Shown: positions 15,849 to 27,669 of the stretch, in pieces | How the letters are laid out: the number at the start of each line of letters is the position of its first letter | How positions within the stretch are numbered: position 1 is the stretch's first letter | NCBI GenBank assembly: GCA_012719955.1 | Contig: JAAXZI010000223.1 | Span: 500-64,499, forward strand | Origin: Phycisphaerae bacterium | GTDB lineage: Bacteria; Planctomycetota; Phycisphaerae; UBA1845; PWPN01 | DNA: 64,000 bases | Direction of reading: 5' to 3' | Translations under genes and position numbers: made by a program | The notes under the pieces: generated by a model | Databases searched by the model: none | The model's input: the letters and a program-made list of their open reading frames with translations, nothing else | What the model was told of the DNA's origin: nothing

Positions 15849-18320
15849 CTATTCTCCGTATTTCCACTCCAAAATGCCGGCGGAGAGGCCCGGCGCAAGT
15901 TGGACATCCAGCCGGATGGCCGTCGTGGTGACGGGCTCAAAGGTCGCCCGGTTGAACTGGTCGGCCTTCCGGGGATACGAGCCGCTGGTCAAACGGACAT
16001 CCTTCCAGGTATCGCCGTCCAGCCACTGCACCTTCCAGGATGCCGGCAACCGGCATCCGCCACCCCGGGCGATGTCGTCAAACCAGTAGACCTCCACCCA
16101 TGAAAACTTTCGCGGCTCGGGGAAGGTATATTGCACCCATTCCCGCGTCCCCCGATGGTCCCACCAGGTGAAACGCGGAATGCTTTGATCGCCGGAGGAC
16201 TTCGGCTCGATCCGATCATTAAGAGCGGATAGTGAGTCATACCGATTGTGGAACGAGGCCGTCGGCAGATAGGGCTGCGACGACCACGTCTTGGCCTCGG
16301 GGCCCTCCCCAATGGTGGGGAACTGGCTGATCCGCAGACGGGCGCAACCCATGGGGATCAGGGTAATATCCTCAATAGGTTGCTCGGAGCGGACCGGGCT
16401 GCCCTGGATCTCGCACACCAAGCCGTTGGGCTCCTGCTTCCATTCGGGAATTCGCCGGCCTTTGGCCTTCAAGGCTATGGGAGCCCCTTCATGGGTGAAC
16501 GGCTGCGCGGCCGGCCTGGCGGCGGTCTTGATCACCTCGAACGATTTGGCGGGGGCCTGCGCGTCCAAAACCAGCCCGTAATTCCACGGAGTAGTCGGGA
16601 ACACCTCATAGCCCGGCCAGGGATCCTTGCCGTACTTGACCCATTTCTCGCCGATCTTGAGTGAGTAAGTGATCGGGCCGCGATGCACCGACACGGCATT
16701 GTGATTCTTGGCCCAGGTTTTCACCTGGATGGTCATGGGTAGCTCCAGGCGGACGGTATCCCCGTCGGCCCACTCGCGCTCCAGCGTGGCCCAGGTGCCG
16801 GGGCGGAACTCGGTCTGAACGGCCTGGCCGTTGATGTTGACGCGGGCCCCTTCGCACCAGCCGGGGATCCGCAGAACCAGCGGGAACTTTACGCTCCGGG
16901 GAACGGAGAGCTTGAACTCCACCACCTCGTCAAACGGGTAGTCGGTGGTTTCCTTGACAGTTATCTTTGTGCCGTCGCCCACTTTGGCCTTCACGGTGCC
17001 AGCCGCGTAGAACACCGCCGCCAGACCGTTGGCGGGCGTGGCCATCCACAGGTGCTCGGCGTAGTACGGCCAGCCGAAAGCCACGTTGTGCTGGCAGCAG
17101 CGGTACTGCTCGAAGGGGGTGTAGGTGAACATGTCCCCGGCGTTGTAAATCAGGGGGGCCTTGTTCTTGCGGTCAAGCTGGATCTGGTTGGGGGCCGTCA
17201 GGTAGTGCAGGCCCTTGTGGTCCGGGGTGCAGGAGGCCGGCAGGGAGTTCAAGGCTACTTCCTCGCACCGGTCAGCCCAGAGCCCGTCGCCGGAGATCTT
17301 CAGCAGGATCTGGGCGCTGTGCATAAATTCAACCCAGGTGCAGGTCTCCGTGCCCTGGCGCGGGCCGGTGAAACCGGGACGGCAGATCTCGTCGGCGCCG
17401 ATGCCCCCGCCCGGAACCTGGCCATAGAGGCCCCAGATGGTGTCGTAATTGCGGTAAGCGGCCTTCAAGTAGCGCGGGTCGGCGTACTGCTGATAGAACT
17501 GTGCCGGCTCGCGGAAACACTCGGCGATATTGACCCCGTGCCAGGAGGCCACCCCGCCGGTCCAGTCGGCGGTGCGCTCGTGATTGACCCGGGCCACCTC
17601 CAGCAGCCAGGATTCGCCGGTGCGGTTGTAGAGCCAGTAAATGCTGTCCAGGTTGTCCCCGCCGCGGATTTTCTGCCAGCTTTCCGGTAGCAGATGTTCG
17701 AAAGGCAGGGTGCTTTGCCACTTGAAGTAGTTGGTCATGAGCTTCAGGACGCGCTCGTCGCCGGTGGCCTCGTGGTAGGTCCGCAGAGCGTAGAGCATGC
17801 ACATGTTCGGCCAAAGATCGCGGCTGTCGAGACCCTGCTGGGGGCCGAAATAGCCACTCGGCCGGGCACTGGCCAGGGTGGCCTCGATCCAGCGTTTGGA
17901 TTCGTCGAGAATGCGCGAGTCGTTGAGCGCGTAGCCGAGGCTGATAAAGCCTCTGAGCCAGTAAGGCAGCTCTTCCCAGCCCAATCGACCCCGGCCCTGG
18001 GGATCGGTCCACGCACTGCCCTCGAATTTGCACCAGGGGCTGATCTCGGTGAGCCGGCCAGTCATGCCCTCGGCCATCAGTTCGAGCTGGGTGCGCACCC
18101 AGCCTTCCGGCCGGATCGACCCGACCGGCAATTTGATGAATGGGCTGGGCGTGAGTGGCTGGCGGTTGCCGACATAGAAGCGGTTTTCGCCCGTCGGCAG
18201 CGAGGGGGTGATCACGGGAGCCGCCTGGACGAGAGCGGATGCGGCGACCACGGTCAGGCCGGCCGCCGCCAGGAACGGGCGCTTGCTTAAAGCATTGGAA
18301 GATAAAATGTTATATCTCAT
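15849..18320 (-). CDS. GH127-family (beta-L-arabinofuranosidase-like) hydrolase with C-terminal discoidin-like module
   Basis: Signal peptide from ATG 18320; GWEELPYW, WHGVN, ETC...E, CCQHN, TDYPF, LIPMGCARLRI motifs. Confidence 0.85.
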   Translation of the reverse strand: MRYNILSSNALSKRPFLAAAGLTVVAASALVQAAPVITPSLPTGENRFYVGNRQPLTPSPFIKLPVGSIRPEGWVRTQLELMAEGMTGRLTEISPWCKFEGSAWTDPQGRGRLGWEELPYWLRGFISLGYALNDSRILDESKRWIEATLASARPSGYFGPQQGLDSRDLWPNMCMLYALRTYHEATGDERVLKLMTNYFKWQSTLPFEHLLPESWQKIRGGDNLDSIYWLYNRTGESWLLEVARVNHERTADWTGGVASWHGVNIAECFREPAQFYQQYADPRYLKAAYRNYDTIWGLYGQVPGGGIGADEICRPGFTGPRQGTETCTWVEFMHSAQILLKISGDGLWADRCEEVALNSLPASCTPDHKGLHYLTAPNQIQLDRKNKAPLIYNAGDMFTYTPFEQYRCCQHNVAFGWPYYAEHLWMATPANGLAAVFYAAGTVKAKVGDGTKITVKETTDYPFDEVVEFKLSVPRSVKFPLVLRIPGWCEGARVNINGQAVQTEFRPGTWATLEREWADGDTVRLELPMTIQVKTWAKNHNAVSVHRGPITYSLKIGEKWVKYGKDPWPGYEVFPTTPWNYGLVLDAQAPAKSFEVIKTAARPAAQPFTHEGAPIALKAKGRRIPEWKQEPNGLVCEIQGSPVRSEQPIEDITLIPMGCARLRISQFPTIGEGPEAKTWSSQPYLPTASFHNRYDSLSALNDRIEPKSSGDQSIPRFTWWDHRGTREWVQYTFPEPRKFSWVEVYWFDDIARGGGCRLPASWKVQWLDGDTWKDVRLTSGSYPRKADQFNRATFEPVTTTAIRLDVQLAPGLSAGILEWKYGE

Positions 18321-18598
18321 TGGCACGCCTCTCGTCAGGTAGGGTGGTGGCGCGGAGGTGGGCTTGAAAGCATCCGTGGTGCTCTGGACAGCCGGCCCCC
18401 GTGCGACGATCATTCAAGAGCTGTGCGGATGCTATCGGCGGGTCCGGGAATCTGCAAACGAGGGCCTTGGGAACGAGGTTGTCCCCGCCGTTGGGGGAAG
18501 GCGCAGTCCGATAACGGCAGCGCACTGCGGCGCCGCCCAGGCAGGAGTCCGCCTCGAAGTCGCGCGTGCCGGTGCCTTGGAGCAGGGCCGCTGTGGGC

Positions 18599-18616: not shown

Positions 18617-18869
18617 CAGGCCCGCATCAATCGTTTCCTGAACGCCCGGAAAGGCGGGCCTGAGGCGAACGCGTGGGCAGCCTCTGGAAGGGATTCGTAA
18701 GTCGTTCTTTCTGCAATTATTGCATCAGCTCAGCAGTACATTTGTTCTGCGGGCTTTACTTTGCGGGGTTCCGAAAGCCGCTTGCCAGCGCTGATTATCA
18801 AGAAAACTGAAAGTATTGGTTGCGTGATGGTCGATAAGAAATGCCAAGTTTTGCGGGAGTGGACCTGTC

Positions 18870-19952
18870 GTGTCTGAGACCCTGCTTCCGAAGACGATTT
18901 GCTGGGTCGGAGGGCTCGACGGATGGATCGAGATGATCGATCAGACCCTCCTGCCGGGCGAACTGAAGGTGCTCGCTTGCCACGACGTGGAGACGTTGTG
19001 GGAGGCGATCCGGAATCTGCGGGTTCGCGGCGCGCCGGCCATCGGAATTGCGGCGGCTATGGGCGTGGTGCTGGGAATCCGGGATTCGCGTTCGTCTGGT
19101 GAGTTCTTTGACAATTTGGCCGGCGTGTGCAGTTATCTGGCCGGCAGTCGGCCCACCGCTGTCAACCTGTTCTGGGCTTTGGATCGAATGCGTGCGCGGG
19201 CGGAAGCGCTTCGCGGCGCAGATCTGAAGGTTTTGAAACAGGCGATGCTGGCGGAGGCCCAGGCGATTCGCGATGAGGACGCCGCCACCTGCCGGGCTAT
19301 CGGTGAGGTGGGGCAGAGCCTGATCGCGGATGGCGCCGTGCTGGTAACTCACTGCAACGCTGGCGGATTAGCCACTTCCGAGTACGGAACCGCATTGGCC
19401 CCCATGTTTCGTGCCCATGAGCTGGGGCGGCGATTTAAAGTCTATGCTGACGAAACCCGCCCCTTACTTCAGGGGTCACGGTTGACCGCCTGGGAACTCG
19501 CCCGGGCGGGTATTGACGTGACGATCCTGTGCGATAACATGGTAGGGCACTTGATGAGCCGTACACAGGTCAGCCTGGTCATCACTGGCGCGGATCGGAT
19601 TGCCTCGAACGGTGATACGGCCAATAAGATCGGGACCTACGGCTTGGCCATTCTGGCGAAGGCACATAACGTGCCCTTTTACGTGGCGGCGCCGCGCTCA
19701 ACTTTTGATCGGACTCTGGCCGATGGTTCGATGATTCCGATCGAGGAGCGGCCGGCTGACGAAGTCCGTAAAGGTTTCGGCCGCCTGACGGCGCCAGAGG
19801 GAGTGGCGTGTTATAACCCGGCTTTTGATGTGACTCCCGCGGCTCTGATTCGCGGGATTATCACCGAAGTGGGGTTGGTCTCTCCGGTGACCCCGGGCAA
19901 TATCCGTAAGATTTTTACGGATGAGGCTTGCAATGAACCGGAAAGACGGTAA
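18870..19952 (+). CDS. mtnA: S-methyl-5-thioribose-1-phosphate isomerase
   Basis: IDQTLLP, VRGAPAIG, RPTAVNL, THCNAGGLAT, DETRPLLQGSRLTAWEL, GADRIASNGDTANKIGTY, NPAFDVTP. Confidence 0.96.
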   Translation: MSETLLPKTICWVGGLDGWIEMIDQTLLPGELKVLACHDVETLWEAIRNLRVRGAPAIGIAAAMGVVLGIRDSRSSGEFFDNLAGVCSYLAGSRPTAVNLFWALDRMRARAEALRGADLKVLKQAMLAEAQAIRDEDAATCRAIGEVGQSLIADGAVLVTHCNAGGLATSEYGTALAPMFRAHELGRRFKVYADETRPLLQGSRLTAWELARAGIDVTILCDNMVGHLMSRTQVSLVITGADRIASNGDTANKIGTYGLAILAKAHNVPFYVAAPRSTFDRTLADGSMIPIEERPADEVRKGFGRLTAPEGVACYNPAFDVTPAALIRGIITEVGLVSPVTPGNIRKIFTDEACNEPERR

Positions 19953-20178
19953 GATTCCCGCCCTAATGGGCTGCCGGCGCGGTCGGCCCGCAGGGTGGAC
20001 GTGGAGATAGAGACACCATTAGCAATGTTTACCCTGCCGATCGGCGCGGATCGGCTCGTGAATTGCGTTGAATGTTTCACTAATCGGAGCAAGTCGTCGG
20101 CTACGGAGTTGGCGGCTCGCGGCTCTGGTGGCCTCCGGTCGAGAGGCCAAGTTCGTTTCCTTCTAAAGGAGGCTCACA

Positions 20179-20316
20179 ATGTCAATGTGGAGCAAGTTGA
20201 AGGTCGCACTGTTGACGGCTACAGTCGGGCTGTCGGCAATGCAGTTCGGTGGCTGCCTGAACCTGGACTGGAACACCATCCTGCGCTACGTCGCGATCGG
20301 CAGCATCTTTGATTGA
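20179..20316 (+). CDS. Small putative lipopeptide precursor 1 (45 aa)
   Basis: Hand translation MSMWSKLKVALLTATVGLSAMQFGGCLNLDWNTILRYVAIGSIFD; AAGGAGG SD; below ORF-track cut-off. Confidence 0.72.
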   Translation: MSMWSKLKVALLTATVGLSAMQFGGCLNLDWNTILRYVAIGSIFD

Positions 20317-20437
20317 GTGGTTTTGAAACATCTGTGGGTGCCCTGCGGCTTGGGCGTCCCCGTGTATGGGAATGCAGCCGAAGCGGGGCTGAGATGGCCT
20401 GACTAACGAAAAGGCCGACATCCTACGAGGAGAAAAA

Positions 20438-20566
20438 ATGATGTCGAAAATGAGCTGGTTCAAGTGGGGTCTGCTGGTGGCGGGTTCCTCCGTCCTGACC
20501 CTGCAGCTTGGTGAGTGCATCTCCCAGTTGCTGTTGCAGTCGTTCATCCTTCGGGCTGTGAACTGA
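20438..20566 (+). CDS. Small putative lipopeptide precursor 2 (42 aa)
   Basis: MMSKMSWFKWGLLVAGSSVLTLQLGECISQLLLQSFILRAVN; GAGGAG SD. Confidence 0.68.
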   Translation: MMSKMSWFKWGLLVAGSSVLTLQLGECISQLLLQSFILRAVN

Positions 20567-20697
20567 GAAATCTGAGTTGAACGGGGCCGGTTTCCAACCA
20601 ACACCGGCCGCCGTGCAGGGCGACTGGCGCCTGCTCTTCGCAGGATGAGAAAAGCATCCGGAGCCGCGCGTCGGTTTCCCGCTTAAGGAGGCTCGCA

Positions 20698-20829
20698 ATG
20701 TCGAAACTGAGCAAGAAGTGGGCGATTCTGGCTGCCGTGATGGGCGGCATGATGTTTCATTTCGGTGGCTGCCTCGGTGGTCTGAACCGCTGGATCGTGG
20801 CTATCCTGAACGAGGATCTTTTTGGCTAA
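20698..20829 (+). CDS. Small putative lipopeptide precursor 3 (43 aa)
   Basis: MSKLSKKWAILAAVMGGMMFHFGGCLGGLNRWIVAILNEDLFG; AAGGAGG SD. Confidence 0.72.
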   Translation: MSKLSKKWAILAAVMGGMMFHFGGCLGGLNRWIVAILNEDLFG

Positions 20830-20973
20830 GAGCCGATTCCGGATCAGCTGTGCGGTCAGACGGGAAAGACGCTGTTCGTTTCCGCTTTGACCGTCCGGCG
20901 TGTTCGGCAGGCTTGCCTCGGTGTTGATGACGTATCCGCATCGAGGATTGGGCATCGAATGGAGGTCATAAAT

Positions 20974-21129
20974 ATGACACGTTTGGCAAAGATCATGGGC
21001 GTCATTGGTTTGACGTCGGTGTACCTCATGCAGGCCCCCTGCACCTTCGCAGGCCACGGCTTCAGCATCATCCCGAACAACATCATCCCGAATCCGTTCG
21101 CGGGTTTGCTGGCCACCCTGGGCTTCTAA
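20974..21129 (+). CDS. Small putative lipopeptide precursor 4 (51 aa)
   Basis: MTRLAKIMGVIGLTSVYLMQAPCTFAGHGFSIIPNNIIPNPFAGLLATLGF; GGAGGT SD. Confidence 0.68.
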   Translation: MTRLAKIMGVIGLTSVYLMQAPCTFAGHGFSIIPNNIIPNPFAGLLATLGF

Positions 21130-21880
21130 GCCCCTGGGTTGTTGCCAGGGCCGTGGAGCGCCGTGCCGCCTGATCACTCGGTCAGGCCAGGCGCTGGCGA
21201 TACGCTACCGCGTAGTCAGGCGGGGCGACGGACCACGGCAATATGGACGAGAGGCAGCGCTCTACCGGAGTGCTGCCTTTTGTTTTTTGGGGCAAGAGGC
21301 TGAGCTTCGCGCGCGGTTGCGCGAAAAAGCACACGTCGGCCGTACCCAGCGCTGGTGGCGGTGCCGGCCAGGATAGGTCCGGATTACCATCAAGCTCAAA
21401 GCGTCGGGCGCGCTGGTGAAGATGGTTGTTTATCGGGCGACTGCCCGAATGACGGCCTGGACGCATGTGCATGGAGCATCATTGCTGAAGGTCTTGTGGC
21501 CGGAAGGCAATGGACGCTCAGGCGGGGCAGCTCAGGGTTTTTGCGGCCTCGGGGGATGGTGACAGGCGGCTGAGGCAAGCGTTGGCCGCTGGTCCCGCGA
21601 GGCTGGCAGGGGGGCGGTCGAGAATAGATCGAATTGGAAGTGACACTGGCATCGGGTGTTGTTGCGGCACGGGATCGGCCGGCACCCGGGCGTTACACCG
21701 AAACGGCCGATACGGAGCCCGGGCACTGCAGTTCGATATGCGACCCGGTCGAAGCCGGGCCGTTACAGTTCGATATGTGACCTGTTCGGGACCCGGTCGC
21801 TTCGGGGTGGTGGGAATGGCCGGCACGAAGCCGTATGGGCTTGGCCTGGCCGGTGGGGAACTTTGCTCTTTGGCTCATGA

Positions 21881-21980
21881 GGCGGGCAGGATGCCTGCCC
21901 CCCGGCAGCGGCGGCCGGCTGTGCCGGAGGGCGGGCAAGATGCCACCTGAATTCCTCGGAGGGCGGGCATCTTGCCCGCC
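21881..21980. repeat. Cluster of three GGCGGGCA-RGA-TGCCCGCC REP-like elements
   Basis: Copies at 21881 (+), 21929 (+) and 21961 (-); the last two form an inverted pair. Confidence 0.75.
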
Positions 21981-22192
21981 TGAGTCTGATCCGCCGAGAA
22001 ACCGGTACGGAAAACGGTGCTAGACTCCTTATAGCGTTCGTCGGCGGAGGGTGTTGCCAAGACAAATGACCGGCCGTATACTTGGCCCACTGTTGAGGTC
22101 ACAATCCGCCGGCTGCGACGTGCTCCGGAGAGATGCGGGAGCGCATCAGGTTCTGGCAGACCAGCGGGAGACACCATGGTGGAGGTCCTCAT

Positions 22193-22555
22193 ATGACGCG
22201 GCGACAACGCGGCTGGATCTGGTTGGCGACCATTTGTGGCGGCGTGACCCTTTATCAGGGCATCGGAACGACGACGGGTTATCTGCCGGTCTACGGCGGT
22301 GTGATCGGCGGGCAACGGGGGAACAGTTGTGGCCGGTTCGCTTCCAACGGGCTGGTCAGCAGCATCGATTTCTGCTTCCTGCTCGATTGCGAGAACGGTT
22401 TCTTCGGCGGGGTGATTGATCCCTGCGGAAACGCGGGCACGGCCGGCGATCTCCTCGTCGACTGCGTCAACGTGCCGGGCCCTGTTGCCACCACGGAAAA
22501 CGACACCACAAATACCGGAACGGGCACGAACACAAACACAAATACCGGTTTTTGA
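22193..22555 (+). CDS. Exported Cys-rich small protein with Thr/Asn tail (array member 5, 120 aa)
   Basis: ATG 22193 behind GGAGGT; MTRRQRGWIWLATICGGVTLYQ...GNSC...C...C...C...C...NTGTGTNTNTNTGF. Confidence 0.7.
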   Translation: MTRRQRGWIWLATICGGVTLYQGIGTTTGYLPVYGGVIGGQRGNSCGRFASNGLVSSIDFCFLLDCENGFFGGVIDPCGNAGTAGDLLVDCVNVPGPVATTENDTTNTGTGTNTNTNTGF

Positions 22556-22673
22556 GGGATGGGAAGGCTGAACAATCAAACGCGGTTTGACGCAGCCCTT
22601 GGAGCGGGGGGCATCGGCTGACCACGGGCGTCGATGCGAACCGATGGCCCCACACGCGAGACACGAGGCTTTC

Positions 22674-23048
22674 ATGAAAACGACAACCAAATGGCGAACC
22701 GGGCTCCAGATCCTGCTGGCCACTTCCCTCTGCGGATCGGTCTTTCAGATTGGCAGTTGCTTGAGTGCTCTCGGGCGGAACTTCAATCCATGTGGGACCA
22801 TTCTCACGTGCGATCCGGCCGAGTTCGATCTGCTCACTATCGATCCCCTGGAGCCGGATTACGACTTTAACCCCACCTGTGTGATTCCCGGCCTGTTCAA
22901 CTGCACGACCCCGATTTCGGTGGGAGGCGCCACTTCCAGCACTGACACGACCACTACCAGCGGCTTGACGAGTACCACGACAACGACATCCACGAACCGC
23001 ACCAACACGACCGGAACGCGTGGTCAACTGCAGAGCGGGTTCTTCTAA
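22674..23048 (+). CDS. Exported Cys-rich small protein with Thr-rich tail (array member 6, 124 aa)
   Basis: ATG 22674 behind GAGG; MKTTTKWRTGLQILLATSLCGSVFQIGSC...four more Cys...TTTTSG...QSGFF. Confidence 0.7.
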   Translation: MKTTTKWRTGLQILLATSLCGSVFQIGSCLSALGRNFNPCGTILTCDPAEFDLLTIDPLEPDYDFNPTCVIPGLFNCTTPISVGGATSSTDTTTTSGLTSTTTTTSTNRTNTTGTRGQLQSGFF

Positions 23049-23091
23049 AACTTGACTGTTCAATCGTTTTTTCACGGATGAGGCTTTAACC

Positions 23092-23253
23092 ATGCGTCGA
23101 TGGTATCGTGTTCGACAAGTGCTGCTGGTTGTCCTGAGTGGGGGCATGCTCCTGCAGACCACCGCCGGTTGTGAGGAGCTGCTGGCCCCGATCATCGCCA
23201 ATGTGGTCAGCTCCCTGGTGCTGAACGCCTTGCTTGGCGGTTTGGCCTTTTGA
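23092..23253 (+). CDS. Small putative lipopeptide precursor 7 (53 aa)
   Basis: MRRWYRVRQVLLVVLSGGMLLQTTAGCEELLAPIIANVVSSLVLNALLGGLAF; GAGG SD. Confidence 0.68.
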   Translation: MRRWYRVRQVLLVVLSGGMLLQTTAGCEELLAPIIANVVSSLVLNALLGGLAF

Positions 23254-23635
23254 CCCGGCCGTCAGGCCGCTGATCAAAACCGGCTTCTCCCTGGCCCTGC
23301 GAGTACTGGTATGGCCGTAGCTCGTGGGAGATTCTCCAGACCGGCTCGATTCTGCTTTTCTTGGGGGAGAGGTCGTTTTTGCCTGGTTGTTAAAGTATTT
23401 ATTTAAGCCAGCTTCCGGCGTACCCATTCTGTTTTTGGTCTTTTGACCTTGATCGATGAGCGGTCTATCATCTTCAGTGATGCAAGCCACCGGTCAGTTC
23501 ACATAGAAGAGGTGCTGCAGCACATCGGTTGGCTGGTCGCCCTTCGAGCCCGCCATCCACCAGCGGCAGAACCCGAAGGGGAGAAGAGGGCGTGTTGGGA
23601 TCGATCAGCTTTTGCAGCGAGGTGTGCCAACAGCC

Positions 23636-24322
23636 ATGACTCTCAGTTATTCCCATGGTCGGGAATTCATCGAGCAGGTTCGTCCGATCCTGGAACGGAG
23701 AGACACCGAGGCCTTCGTCAGGCATCTCGATCAATTTTGGCCCCCAAACGCTTTACGCGGCTTATTGCAGTGTGGACATCAGGACGCCGCGTATGCCGCG
23801 CTCGCCGGGTTGGCACTGGTCGGATCAATGGAGCATTGCCCCTTCATTGCCGGCCTGCTGCATGACGACGATGGGCTCACCGCTGATCTTGCCGAACACG
23901 CGTTGTGGTGCATCTGGTTCCGGGCGGGCGGGCCCGAACCCAACCAGCAGGTGGCTCTGGCGGTAAGACTCATCAGCCGGGGGGAGCTGGATGCCGCCCA
24001 CGAATGCATCGCCCGCGTGCTCGCCACCCATCCCAGTTTCGCCGAAGCTTACCACCAGATGGCTCTGGTTCACTTCCTCCGGGGGGATTACGTTCAAGCC
24101 ATCAGTTTCTGCCAGGCCACGCTACTGCTGAACGCGTGGCACTTCGGGGCCGTGGCCCTCATGGGTCACTGCTATGCGTCCAGCGCTCAATTTGAGCAGG
24201 CCTGTGCCGCTTACCAACGGGCCCTGCAGTTGCATCCGCGCTTGCAGGGCGTGCGTCAAGCCATCCATCAGATCCGCGCCGCGGCCTGTCCGAATTCCGT
24301 GAATACATTCACAAAGTTTTAA
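23636..24322 (+). CDS. HEAT/TPR repeat protein
   Basis: AEHALWCIWFR segment followed by TPRs (HPSFAEAYHQMALVHF, WHFGAVALMGHCY, AYQRALQLHP). Confidence 0.8.
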   Translation: MTLSYSHGREFIEQVRPILERRDTEAFVRHLDQFWPPNALRGLLQCGHQDAAYAALAGLALVGSMEHCPFIAGLLHDDDGLTADLAEHALWCIWFRAGGPEPNQQVALAVRLISRGELDAAHECIARVLATHPSFAEAYHQMALVHFLRGDYVQAISFCQATLLLNAWHFGAVALMGHCYASSAQFEQACAAYQRALQLHPRLQGVRQAIHQIRAAACPNSVNTFTKF

Positions 24323-26869: not shown

Positions 26870-27669
26870 GCGAGGAAATCATCAGTATCAGCGACCTCTG
26901 TGTCCGGGCGGGCCGCCGAAAGGTTCTCGCGCTTCAGAATCTCTCTATCCAGCGGGGTGAGTTTGTCGGTATCCTCGGGCCCAACGGGGCGGGTAAGAGC
27001 ACCCTGTTGAAGGCCTGCCTGGGATTGCAGCGGGGCGTCTCCGGTCACATCTCGGTCTTCGGCCATGCGCTGGCGGACTTAGGTTTCCGAGAACTGGCCT
27101 TGCTGCGGCGCCGGATCGGTTATATCCCCCAATTGCTGCCCGGCCGGATGGAAATGCCCCTCACCGTCCGCGAAGTAGTCGCGATGGGCCGCACTGCCCA
27201 TGCGGGCCTGCTGCGTTCCCTGACGCGCCAGGATCACCGGTTGGTGGACGAGTGGATCGAGCGGCTGGGGTTGAGTGACCTGGCCGGGCAGACCTACGGG
27301 GCGATATCCGGCGGCGAACAACGCAGGACCCTGATCGCCAGGGCAATGGTGCAGGAGCCGGAGCTGCTTCTGCTGGATGAACCCACAGCCAATCTCGACC
27401 TGGGCGGGCGCGAGCGGCTGGTGTCAATCGTGGAGGAACTGTATCGGCAGAACAGCCTGACTGTACTGCTGGTGTGCCATGAGTTGGAGGTGTTGCCCGC
27501 CTGCTGTGGCCGACTCATTTTGCTGGGGGACGGACAATTGACGGCCGATGGCAGTCCCGACCAGGTCTTGTCCGAGCGGCGGGTCGAATCACTCTATGGG
27601 CCGAGCTTGACCGTGTTGTGTCGGCAGGGCCGCTACGCCATTGTCCCCGCGGTGCTGTCTCATGCTTGA
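26866..27669 (+). CDS. Metal ABC transporter ATP-binding protein
   Basis: ATG overlaps SBP stop; GPNGAGKST, ISGGE, LLLLDEPT, H-loop VCHE. Confidence 0.93.
   Translation: MSEEIISISDLCVRAGRRKVLALQNLSIQRGEFVGILGPNGAGKSTLLKACLGLQRGVSGHISVFGHALADLGFRELALLRRRIGYIPQLLPGRMEMPLTVREVVAMGRTAHAGLLRSLTRQDHRLVDEWIERLGLSDLAGQTYGAISGGEQRRTLIARAMVQEPELLLLDEPTANLDLGGRERLVSIVEELYRQNSLTVLLVCHELEVLPACCGRLILLGDGQLTADGSPDQVLSERRVESLYGPSLTVLCRQGRYAIVPAVLSHA

What the first reader, a model, noticed from the sequence alone, without database searches (positions are those of the whole stretch)
20179..23253. Unannotated array of seven small exported peptides sharing a [QH]-x-G-x-C signal motif (candidate novel lipopeptide system)
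Seen: seven co-oriented ORFs (45, 42, 43, 51, 120, 124, 53 aa), each with its own SD; four fall below the ORF-track cut-off and the other three appear there only with longer upstream starts. All have a basic N-terminus and hydrophobic stretch; six then show Gln/His close before a Cys: MQFGGC, LQLGEC, FHFGGC, MQAPC, FQIGSC, LQTTAGC. Member 5 has YQ plus a Gly-rich insert before NSC. The five short ones leave only 16-29-residue hydrophobic or amphipathic mature peptides (e.g. CLNLDWNTILRYVAIGSIFD, CLGGLNRWIVAILNEDLFG). Six of seven end with Phe last or penultimate. The motif differs from the ordinary LAGC-type lipoboxes elsewhere in the window. Known: Lgt/LspA lipidate and cleave at a lipobox Cys. 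Inference: a diversified family of ribosomally made lipopeptides (antimicrobial, surfactant, signalling or envelope-structural) matured by housekeeping enzymes, since no dedicated modifying enzyme or transporter is adjacent.
Basis: partly seen in the sequence, partly recalled or inferred. Interest (0 to 1): 0.88.

Follow-up and report, generated by a model that had tools for sequence, protein, structure and literature searches.

The report
Conserved, highly expressed mini-lipoprotein gene cluster
Seven tiny genes next to mtnA are real, are conserved in fixed order across one order of anaerobic Planctomycetota (Sedimentisphaerales-type Phycisphaerae), and the first four give an mRNA several-fold more abundant than EF-Tu mRNA; they most likely encode very small lipid-anchored envelope proteins of an undescribed family, not a diversifying antimicrobial peptide array.

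Summary
In detail: all seven + strand ORFs, their Shine-Dalgarno sites and the quoted motifs are present.

- **Conservation.** These are seven separate orthologous groups, O1 to O7, not a loose diversified array. They are kept in the order mtnA-O1-O2-O3-O4-O5-O6-O7 across genera of the same family. Reduced forms (mtnA-O1..O6, mtnA-O5-O6-O7, mtnA-O5-O6) occur across the whole order. O6 was found in 52 of 301 genomes of the class. The short-peptide profile hit 0 of 300 genomes from the rest of the phylum.
- **Selection.** dN/dS is 0.19-0.74. Coding nucleotide identity is 69-79%, against 21-53% for the spacers.
- **Expression.** In eight metatranscriptomes the O1-O4 RNA has contig depth 170-420 in seven of them. 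EF-Tu of the same genome has 4-43 and O5-O7 has about 5-30.
- **Family.** There is no Pfam, NCBIfam or PDB match, and all homologues are annotated as hypothetical.
- **Leaders.** They look like lipoprotein signals: 2-4 basic residues, a 12-15-residue hydrophobic core, and Cys at position 23-29. A conserved Gln and, in O2 and O4, non-canonical -1 residues make most of them fail the PROSITE lipobox pattern.

The best reading is abundant envelope mini-lipoproteins with a structural role. Lipidation and function are inferred, not shown. The antimicrobial reading is disfavoured.

The parts
18870..19952 (+). mtnA (IF-2B family, methylthioribose-1-phosphate isomerase type). It is the conserved upstream neighbour and is at least partly co-transcribed.
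   Evidence: Pfam PF01008, E 7.6e-88. It lies upstream of the cluster in about 40 of 61 loci across the order. RNA contigs start at 18858-18867 and in some runs continue into O1-O4.
19513..19540 (+). Promoter-like site inside mtnA (TTGACG-16-TAACAT). It is a candidate internal promoter for the O1-O4 transcript.
   Evidence: RNA contigs of two runs begin at 19558 and 19564, one with sequencing adapter directly before it. This is a weak consensus match only.
20129..20149 (+). Conserved 5' leader hairpin (GGCCUCC-loop-GAGGCC), followed by CCUUC-UAA(A)-GGAGG, which can pair with the O1 Shine-Dalgarno site.
   Evidence: The stem is invariant and the loop variable in 8 genera. The step-up in RNA depth lies at 20109-20148. 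Fold.
20179..20316 (+). O1, 45 aa. Leader ...LSAMQFGG, then Cys26. The mature part would be 20 aa ending in VAIGSIFD.
   Evidence: There are 21 orthologues. Position -1 is Gly in 18 of 20. The C-terminal ..(I/L/N)FD is conserved.
20438..20566 (+). O2, 42 aa. Leader ...KWGLLVAGSSVLTLQLGE, then Cys27. The mature part would be 16 aa ending in FILRAVN.
   Evidence: There are 19 orthologues. Position -1 is N, Q, A, T, E, G or S, which is non-canonical. The leader is as conserved as the mature part.
20698..20829 (+). O3, 43 aa. Leader ...GGMMFHFGG, then Cys25. The mature part would be 19 aa ending in AILNEDLFG.
   Evidence: There are 21 orthologues. The C-terminal (I/V)L(N/Q/K)E(D/E)(L/I)FG is conserved.
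20974..21129 (+). O4, 51 aa. Leader ...GLTSVYLMQAP, then Cys23. The mature part would be 29 aa, rich in Pro, Gly and Asn.
   Evidence: There are 15 orthologues. Position -1 is P, N or T, which is non-canonical.
21245..21290 (+). Intrinsic terminator that ends the O1-O4 transcription unit.
   Evidence: Hairpin of -29.6 kcal/mol, z -5.8, followed by UUUUGUUUUUU. RNA contigs of 7 runs end at 21220-21253, two of them with adapter attached.
22054..22082 (+). Promoter-like site (TTGCCA-17-TATACT) for the O5-O7 unit.
   Evidence: RNA contigs begin at 22099-22106 in four runs, and at 22123 in a fifth.
22193..22555 (+). O5, 120 aa. It has a leader ending in GGVTLYQ, a linker, a Cys-rich core (C..F..NG...S.DFC.LLDC.NGFFGG.I.PC...L..DC) and a Thr/Asn/Gly-rich tail.
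   Evidence: There are 114 homologues. Invariant residues are C61, C66, G69, F70, G72, G73, P77, C78, D90 and C91. Q22 is present in at least 90%. An in-frame 30-nt indel polymorphism lies at 22507.
22674..23048 (+). O6, 124 aa. It has a leader ending in VFQIGS, Cys29, a Cys-rich core (NPCGT.L.CDP.E.D...DPTC.IPG.C) and a Thr-rich tail ending in GFF.
   Evidence: There are 395 homologues. It is single-copy in essentially every genome of the order. Invariant residues are C29, P39, C40, G41, C46, C69 and P72.
23092..23253 (+). O7, 53 aa. Leader ...SGGMLLQTTAG, then Cys27, then a 26-residue hydrophobic helix-like segment.
   Evidence: There are 13 orthologues in three families. It is the only window member that passes PROSITE PS00013.

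Best explanation
The region holds two adjacent transcription units.
- mtnA-linked O1-O4, which ends at an intrinsic terminator.
- O5-O7, which has its own promoter.

Together they form an order-specific gene cluster of Sedimentisphaerales-type Phycisphaerae. The cluster encodes seven very small Sec-exported envelope proteins.

Most likely mechanism (inferred, not shown):
1. Each precursor is inserted by Sec through its short signal peptide.
2. The invariant Cys is diacylglycerylated by Lgt and the leader is removed by the LspA-like peptidase.
3. This leaves lipid-anchored peptides of 16-29 residues (O1-O4 and O7).
4. It also leaves two small lipoproteins (O5 and O6). Each has a core that probably holds two disulfides and a flexible Thr/Gly/Asn-rich tail.

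The O1-O4 mRNA is several-fold more abundant than EF-Tu mRNA, and O5-O7 is at about EF-Tu level. The products are therefore most likely bulk structural constituents of the cell envelope, comparable to Lpp or OprI in abundance though not homologous to them. Regulatory or bioactive molecules are less likely.

The conserved Gln that closes the hydrophobic core is a family-specific leader signature. Its role is unknown.

Shown here: the genes are real, conserved, under purifying selection and very highly transcribed, and they belong to an undescribed family. Inferred: export, lipidation, disulfides, assembly and structural role.
For: **Conservation.**
- Gene order and orthology are conserved across genera and families.
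- O6 is found in 52 of 301 class genomes, essentially all of them in this order.
- The short-peptide profile hits 0 of 300 genomes of the phylum outside the order.

**Selection.**
- dN/dS is 0.19-0.74.
- dS of O1-O4 is only 0.46-1.4 (one pair 2.0), against 1.4-2.7 for O5 and O6. This fits codon bias in highly expressed genes.
- Coding identity is 69-79% and spacer identity 21-53%.
- In a variant strain, 3 of 5 changes in O1 are synonymous and the intergenic spacer is replaced.

**Expression in 8 metatranscriptomes.**
- O1-O4 contig depths are 298, 254, 168, about 100, 231, 170, 420 and 17.
- O5-O7 is about 5-30.
- EF-Tu of the same genome is 18.5, 36, 36-43 and 4-6.
- Transcript ends coincide with a strong terminator and with promoter-like sites.

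**Leader geometry.**
- 2-4 Lys/Arg in the n-region.
- An uncharged core of 12-15 residues, which is too short for a stable transmembrane helix.
- Cys at position 23-29.
- Position -1 is Gly, Ala or Ser in most O1, O3, O6 and O7 orthologues.

**Processing enzymes.** lgt (122 bits, above the cut-off) and an lspA-like gene (43 bits) are present.

**Disulfides.** O5 and O6 each keep four invariant Cys beyond the leader Cys.

It is not independent evidence.
Against: **No direct evidence.** Nothing here shows translation, export or lipidation directly. Contig depth is a crude expression measure, and contigs carry no strand.

**Lipobox failures.** Only O7 of the window's seven passes PROSITE PS00013. 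Across orthologues the pass rates are O1 9/21, O2 2/19, O3 6/21, O4 1/15, O5 4/40, O6 9/56 and O7 6/13. The causes are Gln at -4 and position -1 being N, Q, E, T or P in O2 and O4.

**O5 spacing.** In O5 of this family, 10-27 polar residues separate the hydrophobic core from the first Cys. That is incompatible with Lgt/LspA processing at that Cys.

**Leader conservation.** The leaders of O1, O2 and O4 are as conserved as the mature parts (0.68 vs 0.61, 0.72 vs 0.67, 0.64 vs 0.61). This is unusual for discarded signal peptides.

**Structure models.** AlphaFold models of O5 and O6 are unreliable (pLDDT 53 and 57), so no fold supports the disulfide-core idea.

**Function.** No partner or function is known.
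Confidence: 0.55

Rival explanations
1. The leaders are not removed. The seven products would be signal-anchored (N-in) membrane micro-proteins. Their short helices, each carrying a Gln near the outer end, would associate through inter-helix hydrogen bonds. The interface Cys might add disulfides. The result would be one hetero-oligomeric membrane complex.
For: - The leaders are as conserved as the mature parts in O1, O2 and O4.
- The only profile-profile similarity between O5 and O6 is the leader end G..FQ.G, at 92.8% probability.
- The Gln keeps its place relative to the hydrophobic core while its distance to the Cys varies from 3 to 8 and more.
- The O5 linker insertion, and position -1 being P, N, Q or E in O2 and O4, disfavour LspA.
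- The second segment of O7 is hydrophobic enough for a transmembrane hairpin.
Against: - The hydrophobic cores are only 12-15 residues, which is the length of a signal peptide and not of a membrane span.
- A small residue precedes an invariant Cys in most O1, O3, O6 and O7 orthologues, which is the lipobox hallmark.
- The leader of O6 is otherwise poorly conserved, like an ordinary signal peptide.
Confidence: 0.2
2. The precursors are cleaved by signal peptidase I or LspA, and the products are soluble periplasmic or secreted peptides without a lipid anchor. They might act as chaperone-like or matrix components.
For: - Non-canonical lipoboxes.
- The O5 linker.
- The acidic, non-amphipathic mature peptides.
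Against: - No Ala-x-Ala-type cleavage site is conserved before the Cys.
- The Cys is invariant and sits immediately after the core in six of seven groups.
- The mature peptides are too hydrophobic (mean H 0.3-0.57) to be comfortably soluble.
Confidence: 0.1
3. The products are bioactive molecules, as in the first reader's main idea. They would be antimicrobial, surfactant or signalling lipopeptides. A variant of this idea is that the conserved leaders are released as signal-peptide-derived pheromones, as in Enterococcus.
For: - Tandem small genes with short hydrophobic products.
- Unusually conserved leaders.
- Resemblance in size to the entericidins (from general knowledge).
Against: - The groups are single-copy orthologues in fixed order over an order-level time scale and under purifying selection, with no diversification.
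- There is no immunity gene, transporter, receptor or kinase nearby.
- The peptides are neutral or anionic with low hydrophobic moment.
- Expression is constitutive and above EF-Tu level in 8 samples from several studies.
- Entericidin and other Pfam models do not match.
Confidence: 0.07
4. The ORFs are not translated. The abundant RNA would be a structured non-coding or leader RNA, and the ORFs would be incidental.
For: - The 5' leader hairpins are conserved.
- RNA abundance is very high.
Against: - Amino-acid-level conservation with divergent spacers, and dN/dS below 1.
- A Shine-Dalgarno site at the correct spacing before every ORF in every genome.
- In-frame indels only.
- No Rfam match above threshold.
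Confidence: 0.02

Closest known systems
Entericidin A/B (EcnA/EcnB, Pfam PF08085) of Enterobacteria
   Same: - Tandem genes for lipoprotein precursors of 41-48 aa.
- Mature lipopeptides of about 20-25 residues.
- No dedicated maturation genes.
   Different: - No sequence relationship: Pfam gives no hit even at E up to 10.
- Entericidins are a toxin/antidote pair expressed in stationary phase.
- Here there are seven distinct orthologous groups in fixed order, with constitutive, very high expression and weakly amphipathic, neutral to anionic peptides.
Braun's lipoprotein Lpp (Pfam PF04728) and OprI
   Same: Very small lipoproteins encoded by one of the most abundant mRNAs of the cell. They have a structural envelope role. 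This is the proposed functional analogy.
   Different: - No homology.
- The mature peptides are 16-29 aa rather than a coiled coil of 58 aa or more.
- There is no C-terminal Lys for peptidoglycan attachment. The C-termini are D, N, G or F.
- This is a multi-gene set rather than one gene.
Canonical bacterial lipoprotein signal peptides (PROSITE PS51257/PS00013 lipobox)
   Same: A basic n-region, a hydrophobic core of 12-15 residues, and Cys at position 23-29. Position -1 is Gly, Ala or Ser in most O1, O3, O6 and O7 orthologues.
   Different: - A conserved Gln (or His) ends the core, usually at -4. PS00013 does not allow this.
- In O2 and O4 position -1 is N, Q, E, T or P.
- Gln or His in this place occurs in only 6 of 123 lipobox-like ORFs of the genome.
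Operons of very small membrane subunits (for example psbEFLJ, or CydX/AcrZ-type micro-proteins)
   Same: Several 30-50-aa hydrophobic proteins, each with its own ribosome-binding site, encoded side by side and highly expressed.
   Different: - Those proteins have full-length transmembrane helices and no lipobox-like Cys.
- Here the cores are too short for a membrane span.
- No partner complex is encoded nearby.

Membership tests
Bacterial lipoproteins (Lgt/LspA substrates) | Positively charged n-region, a hydrophobic core of 7-22 residues, and Cys between positions 15 and 35. | tested here: met
   There are 2-4 Lys/Arg in the n-region. The cores are 12-15 residues. Cys lies at position 23-29 in O1-O4, O6 and O7.
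Bacterial lipoproteins (Lgt/LspA substrates) | Lipobox matching PROSITE PS00013: {DERK}(6)-[LIVMFWSTAG](2)-[LIVMFYSTAGCQ]-[AGS]-C. | tested here: inconclusive
   In the window only O7 passes. Across orthologues the pass rates are O1 9/21, O2 2/19, O3 6/21, O4 1/15, O5 4/40, O6 9/56 and O7 6/13. The failures come from Gln at -4 or from a non-small residue at -1.
Bacterial lipoproteins (Lgt/LspA substrates) | The processing enzymes are encoded in the genome. | tested here: met
   lgt scores 122 bits, above the cut-off, and there is a second copy at 102 bits. An lspA-like ORF scores 43 bits, below the cut-off.
Bacterial lipoproteins (Lgt/LspA substrates) | S-diacylglyceryl-Cys at the mature N-terminus, and globomycin-sensitive processing. 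| not testable with these tools
   This needs MS, radiolabelling or a globomycin assay.
Entericidin (PF08085) | Match to the family profile. | tested here: not met
   No Pfam hit for any of the seven proteins at E up to 10. NCBIfam also gives none.
Lpp / murein lipoprotein (PF04728) | Match to the Lpp repeat profile, and a C-terminal Lys for peptidoglycan linkage. | tested here: not met
   No Pfam hit. The C-terminal residues are D, N, G, F and L.
Class II bacteriocins / double-glycine leader peptides | A non-hydrophobic leader ending in GG, a neighbouring C39-peptidase ABC exporter and immunity gene, and variable copy number and sequence. | tested here: not met
   - The leaders are of the hydrophobic Sec type.
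- The neighbours are mtnA, a TPR protein, GH127 and hypothetical proteins.
- The orthologues are single-copy and in fixed order.
RiPP precursor arrays | Adjacent modifying enzymes (radical SAM, YcaO, LanM and the like) and a conserved leader with a hypervariable core. | tested here: not met
   No such genes lie within several kb. The core peptides are conserved, not hypervariable.

The most novel reading that the evidence does not exclude
The seven products are subunits of one super-abundant envelope assembly specific to Sedimentisphaerales.
- Ultra-short lipopeptides (O1-O4 and O7) would form a carpet in a membrane leaflet.
- A disulfide-stabilised O5-O6 head with flexible or fibre-like Thr/Gly tails would project from it.
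- In one lineage O6 ends in a phage-tail-fibre-type intramolecular chaperone (Peptidase_S74), which points to trimeric fibres.
- All subunits would be routed by a previously unrecognised Gln-bearing leader signal (GG-x-x-F-Q-x-G-x-C).
- The assembly would take the place that Lpp- or OmpA-type tethers have in other diderm bacteria.
- The promoter embedded in mtnA would explain the order-wide synteny.
Probability: 0.2. Interest if true: 0.8.

Novelty: new variant of a known kind. Interest (0 to 1): 0.6.

Why it matters
Sedimentisphaerales-type Phycisphaerae are common in anaerobic digesters, anammox reactors and sediments. The architecture of planctomycetal cell envelopes is still debated.

In eight metatranscriptomes the O1-O4 transcript is several-fold more abundant than EF-Tu mRNA. 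It encodes 42-51-residue precursors of a family that no database describes. If the products are lipid-anchored peptides of 16-29 residues, they would be among the shortest lipoproteins known and probably major envelope constituents of a whole order.

The Gln-bearing, partly non-canonical lipobox also tests how far Lgt/LspA specificity stretches outside model bacteria. It shows that standard lipoprotein predictors and gene callers under-report such genes.

Tried and rejected
1. **Family searches.** Pfam and NCBIfam scans of all seven proteins gave nothing.
2. **PDB.** Profile searches for O5 and O6 gave only chance hits at E about 0.4.
3. **Structure prediction.** AlphaFold2 with 78-81-sequence alignments gave pLDDT 57 for O6 and 53 for O5. 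No fold search was run because the matches would be meaningless.
4. **Exhaustive HMMER search.** The O6 profile was run against 1.84 billion representatives and gave 107 hits, nearly all of 70-140 aa. The two large multi-repeat hits (P0250, P0320) are repeat artefacts without the Cys pattern.
6. **Short-peptide profile.** The word-indexed search found only 15 proteins and was not useful.
7. **Dedicated second Lgt.** Rejected. One or two lgt hits per genome occur both inside and outside the order.
8. **General leader class.** I tested whether the Gln leader marks a wider class that includes larger proteins. Rejected: a genome-wide scan for GG-x-x-F-Q-type leaders found only O5 plus three unrelated ORFs.
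9. **Small ORFs downstream of mtnA outside the order.** None were found in 77 loci.
10. **Rfam.** Only a sub-threshold chance hit.
11. **Literature.** Four full-text searches found no description of these genes.

Full report
**1.

Searches show seven co-oriented + strand ORFs.
- O1: 20179-20316, 45 aa.
- O2: 20438-20566, 42 aa.
- O3: 20698-20829, 43 aa.
- O4: 20974-21129, 51 aa.
- O5: 22193-22555, 120 aa.
- O6: 22674-23048, 124 aa.
- O7: 23092-23253, 53 aa.

Each has a GGAGG-type ribosome-binding site at normal spacing.

No Pfam or NCBIfam model matches any of the seven, even at E up to 10.

**2. They are real genes, and they form seven orthologous groups rather than a diversifying array.**

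*Paralogues in the same genome.* The window's assembly is 5.29 Mb at 63.5% GC. A motif scan and an HMM of it found four further paralogues of the short type on other contigs.

*Close relatives.* A profile search of 40 relatives hit 18 of them (19 of 41 genomes with the window's own), with the hits lying in tandem.

*Gene order in the family.* The loci show that O1, O2, O3 and O4 each have their own orthologues, always in the same order. tblastn and HMM mapping show the full order mtnA-O1-O2-O3-O4-O5-O6-O7 in several genera of the family and in a second family.

*Reduced forms in other families of the order.*
- mtnA-O1-O2-O3-(O4)-O5-O6 in one family.
- mtnA-O5-O6-O7 in another.
- mtnA-(O5)-O6 in a family with complete genomes.

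*Limits of the distribution.*
- O6 is single-copy in 52 of 301 genomes sampled from the class. These are essentially all the genomes of this order, plus weak hits in one other family.
- The short-peptide profile hits none of 300 genomes from the rest of the phylum.
- No such ORFs follow mtnA outside the order.

*Taxon.* Record titles of the nearest relatives read 'Phycisphaerae bacterium' and 'Sedimentisphaerales bacterium'. DNA and RNA runs that hold the sequence come from sludge, anaerobic digesters and bioreactors.

**3. Selection.**

- Pairwise dN/dS against four relatives is 0.19-0.74 for every gene.
- dS of O1-O4 is mostly 0.5-1.4 (one pair 2.0). This is well below that of O5 and O6 (1.4-2.7), as expected for strong codon bias.
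- Coding nucleotide identity is 69-79%, against 21-53% for the spacers between the ORFs.
- A variant strain in one RNA run carries five changes in O1. Three are synonymous and two are conservative changes in the leader. Its O1-O2 spacer is replaced outright.
- O5 shows an in-frame 30-nt length polymorphism in its low-complexity tail.

**4. Expression.**

Eight metatranscriptomes from several studies contain the region at 97-100% identity.

Contig word depths are:

| Region | Depths across runs |
|---|---|
| O1-O4 | 298, 254, 168, about 70-110, 231, 17, 170, 420 |
| O5-O7 | about 5-30 |
| mtnA (where it assembles separately) | 5-74 |
| EF-Tu gene of the same genome | 18.5, 36, 36-43, 4-6 |

*Transcript ends.*
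- The abundant RNA ends at 21220-21253 in seven runs, twice with adapter attached. This is directly at a strong hairpin plus U-run at 21245-21290 (-29.6 kcal/mol, z -5.8).
- The O5-O7 RNA starts at 22099-22106 in four runs. This lies just downstream of TTGCCA-17-TATACT at 22054-22082.
- Depth steps up at 20109-20148. A hairpin GGCCUCC-loop-GAGGCC sits there and is conserved in eight genera.
- Other contigs begin at about 18860, the start of mtnA.
- Others begin at 19558 and 19564, just after a promoter-like site inside mtnA at 19513-19540.

mtnA and O1-O4 are therefore at least partly one operon. A promoter or processing signal embedded in or just after mtnA would explain why the synteny with mtnA has survived across an order. 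That last step is inference.

*Caveats.* Contig depth is a crude measure, and these contigs carry no strand.

**5. What the proteins look like.**

*Leaders.* All seven share the same geometry.
- 2-4 Lys/Arg in the n-region.
- An uncharged core of 12-15 residues.
- A Gln (His in O3) that closes the core.
- Then usually x-G-x-C.

*The Cys.* It is invariant in O1, O2, O4, O6 and O7.

*Position -1.*
- O1: Gly in 18 of 20.
- O3: Gly in 16 of 21.
- O7: Gly in 11 of 13.
- O6: mostly Gly or Ser.
- O2: N, Q, A, T or E.
- O4: P, N or T.

*Lipobox pattern.* Because of the Gln at -4 and these -1 residues, most members fail PROSITE PS00013. In the window only O7 passes.

*Specificity of the Gln.*
- Gln or His in this place is rare among lipobox-like ORFs of the genome: 6 of 123, four of them from this family.
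- No larger protein carries the leader signature.
- The only profile-profile similarity between O5 and O6 is this leader end.

*Processing enzymes.* lgt and an lspA-like gene are present. lgt copy number is not special to the order.

*Short mature parts (O1-O4 and O7).*
- They would be 16-29 residues long.
- They are moderately hydrophobic and neutral to anionic, with low helical hydrophobic moment. They are therefore not cationic amphipathic peptides.
- Their C-terminal motifs are conserved: VAIGSIFD or VAVNFD, FILRAVN, and ILNE(E/D)LFG.

*O5 and O6.*
- Each keeps four invariant Cys beyond the leader Cys, plus Pro/Gly/Asp motifs.
- Tails that vary in length and are rich in Thr, Gly, Asn or in acidic residues follow.
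- They have 114 and 395 homologues, all annotated as hypothetical.
- The AlphaFold models are unreliable, and there are no PDB relatives.

*A rare fusion.* One O6 orthologue, with an O5-like gene directly upstream, carries a C-terminal Peptidase_S74 intramolecular chaperone after its Thr/Gly linker. This hints that the tails can form trimeric fibres.

**6. Interpretation.**

The geometry of the leaders, the invariant Cys with a small residue before it in four of the groups, and the presence of Lgt and LspA all make lipoproteins the most likely reading. The very high, apparently constitutive expression and the order-wide single-copy conservation point to a structural envelope role. Such a role would be comparable to Lpp or OprI in abundance but unrelated in sequence.

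Four observations count against a simple lipoprotein reading.
- The non-canonical lipoboxes of O2 and O4.
- The 10-27-residue linker between the core and the first Cys in O5 of this family.
- Leaders that are as conserved as the mature parts.
- A Gln that keeps its position relative to the core rather than to the Cys.

These keep alive a rival in which the leaders are retained as short membrane anchors that associate through the Gln.

Bacteriocin-like, RiPP-like or signalling readings fit poorly. There is no diversification, no transporter, immunity gene or modifying enzyme nearby, and the physico-chemistry does not fit. A non-coding reading is excluded for practical purposes by the coding-type conservation.

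**7. Novelty.**

Four full-text searches found no paper that describes these genes. It agrees with this report but is not independent evidence.

New in this report:
- the expression data;
- the transcript architecture;
- the codon-bias signal;
- the order-level presence/absence pattern;
- the lipobox test across orthologues;
- the Peptidase_S74 fusion.

I classify the finding as a new variant of a known kind, namely small bacterial lipoproteins, with an undescribed family, an unusual leader and unknown function.

Noticed in passing
window 21876-21985: GC-rich palindromic, REP-like elements lie in the O4-O5 spacer. RNA and DNA contigs from other loci join here. The first 24 nt of the 21955-21985 element occur 13 times in the genome, and those of the 21876-21910 element 3 times.
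   Followed up: partly
window 22507 (O5 tail): In-frame 30-nt length polymorphism in the Thr/Asn-rich tail of O5. It is seen in contigs of four RNA runs and as a 110-aa allele in the protein database.
   Followed up: partly
L154:236-1063 (protein P0318): An O6 orthologue, preceded by an O5-like gene, is fused through a Thr/Gly-rich linker to a Peptidase_S74 intramolecular chaperone domain of the phage tail-fibre/endosialidase type. It is the only such fusion among 107 representatives.
   Followed up: yes
window 20050-20178 and the equivalent stretch in L013-L018 and L021: A structured 5' leader upstream of O1 is conserved in 8 genera. It has two hairpins (CGGCU-loop-AGCCG and GGCCUCC-loop-GAGGCC) and a CCUUC...GGAGG pairing that can mask the Shine-Dalgarno site. 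The stems are almost invariant, so there is no covariation support.
   Followed up: partly
window 19513-19540: A promoter-like site lies inside the mtnA coding region, and RNA contigs start about 20 nt downstream in two runs. It might explain the order-wide linkage of the cluster to mtnA.
   Followed up: partly
genome contigs C143:2031-2165(-), C222 (about 26987-27109, -), C66:73876-74019(+), C260:555-692(+): Four solitary paralogues of the short type, 41-47 aa, with leaders ...MLFQFGAC...FMFQMGGC...MVFSFGSC and ...MLFQPLGC. They lie outside the cluster next to unrelated genes.
   Followed up: partly
L019:3647-4047: In a genome of another family, two additional small paralogues (52 and 48 aa, leaders ...VCVQGGC and ...LLQWTNC) follow O6. 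The array can therefore grow.
   Followed up: no
genome contigs C244:51554-52456 and C252:49596-50600: There are two lgt homologues in the genome. lgt genes of this order score much lower against TIGR00544 (E 1e-17 to 1e-28) than those of other Phycisphaerae (down to 1e-75). The only lspA-like ORF scores 43 bits, below the cut-off.
   Followed up: partly
window 15849-18413 (-), 23612-24322 (+): The flanking genes are a GH127-type beta-L-arabinofuranosidase with a galactose-binding-like domain and a 236-aa TPR protein. The TPR gene lies on the same RNA contig as O5-O7 in some runs, but in the loci compared here it was found next to the cluster only in the two same-genus relatives.
   Followed up: no
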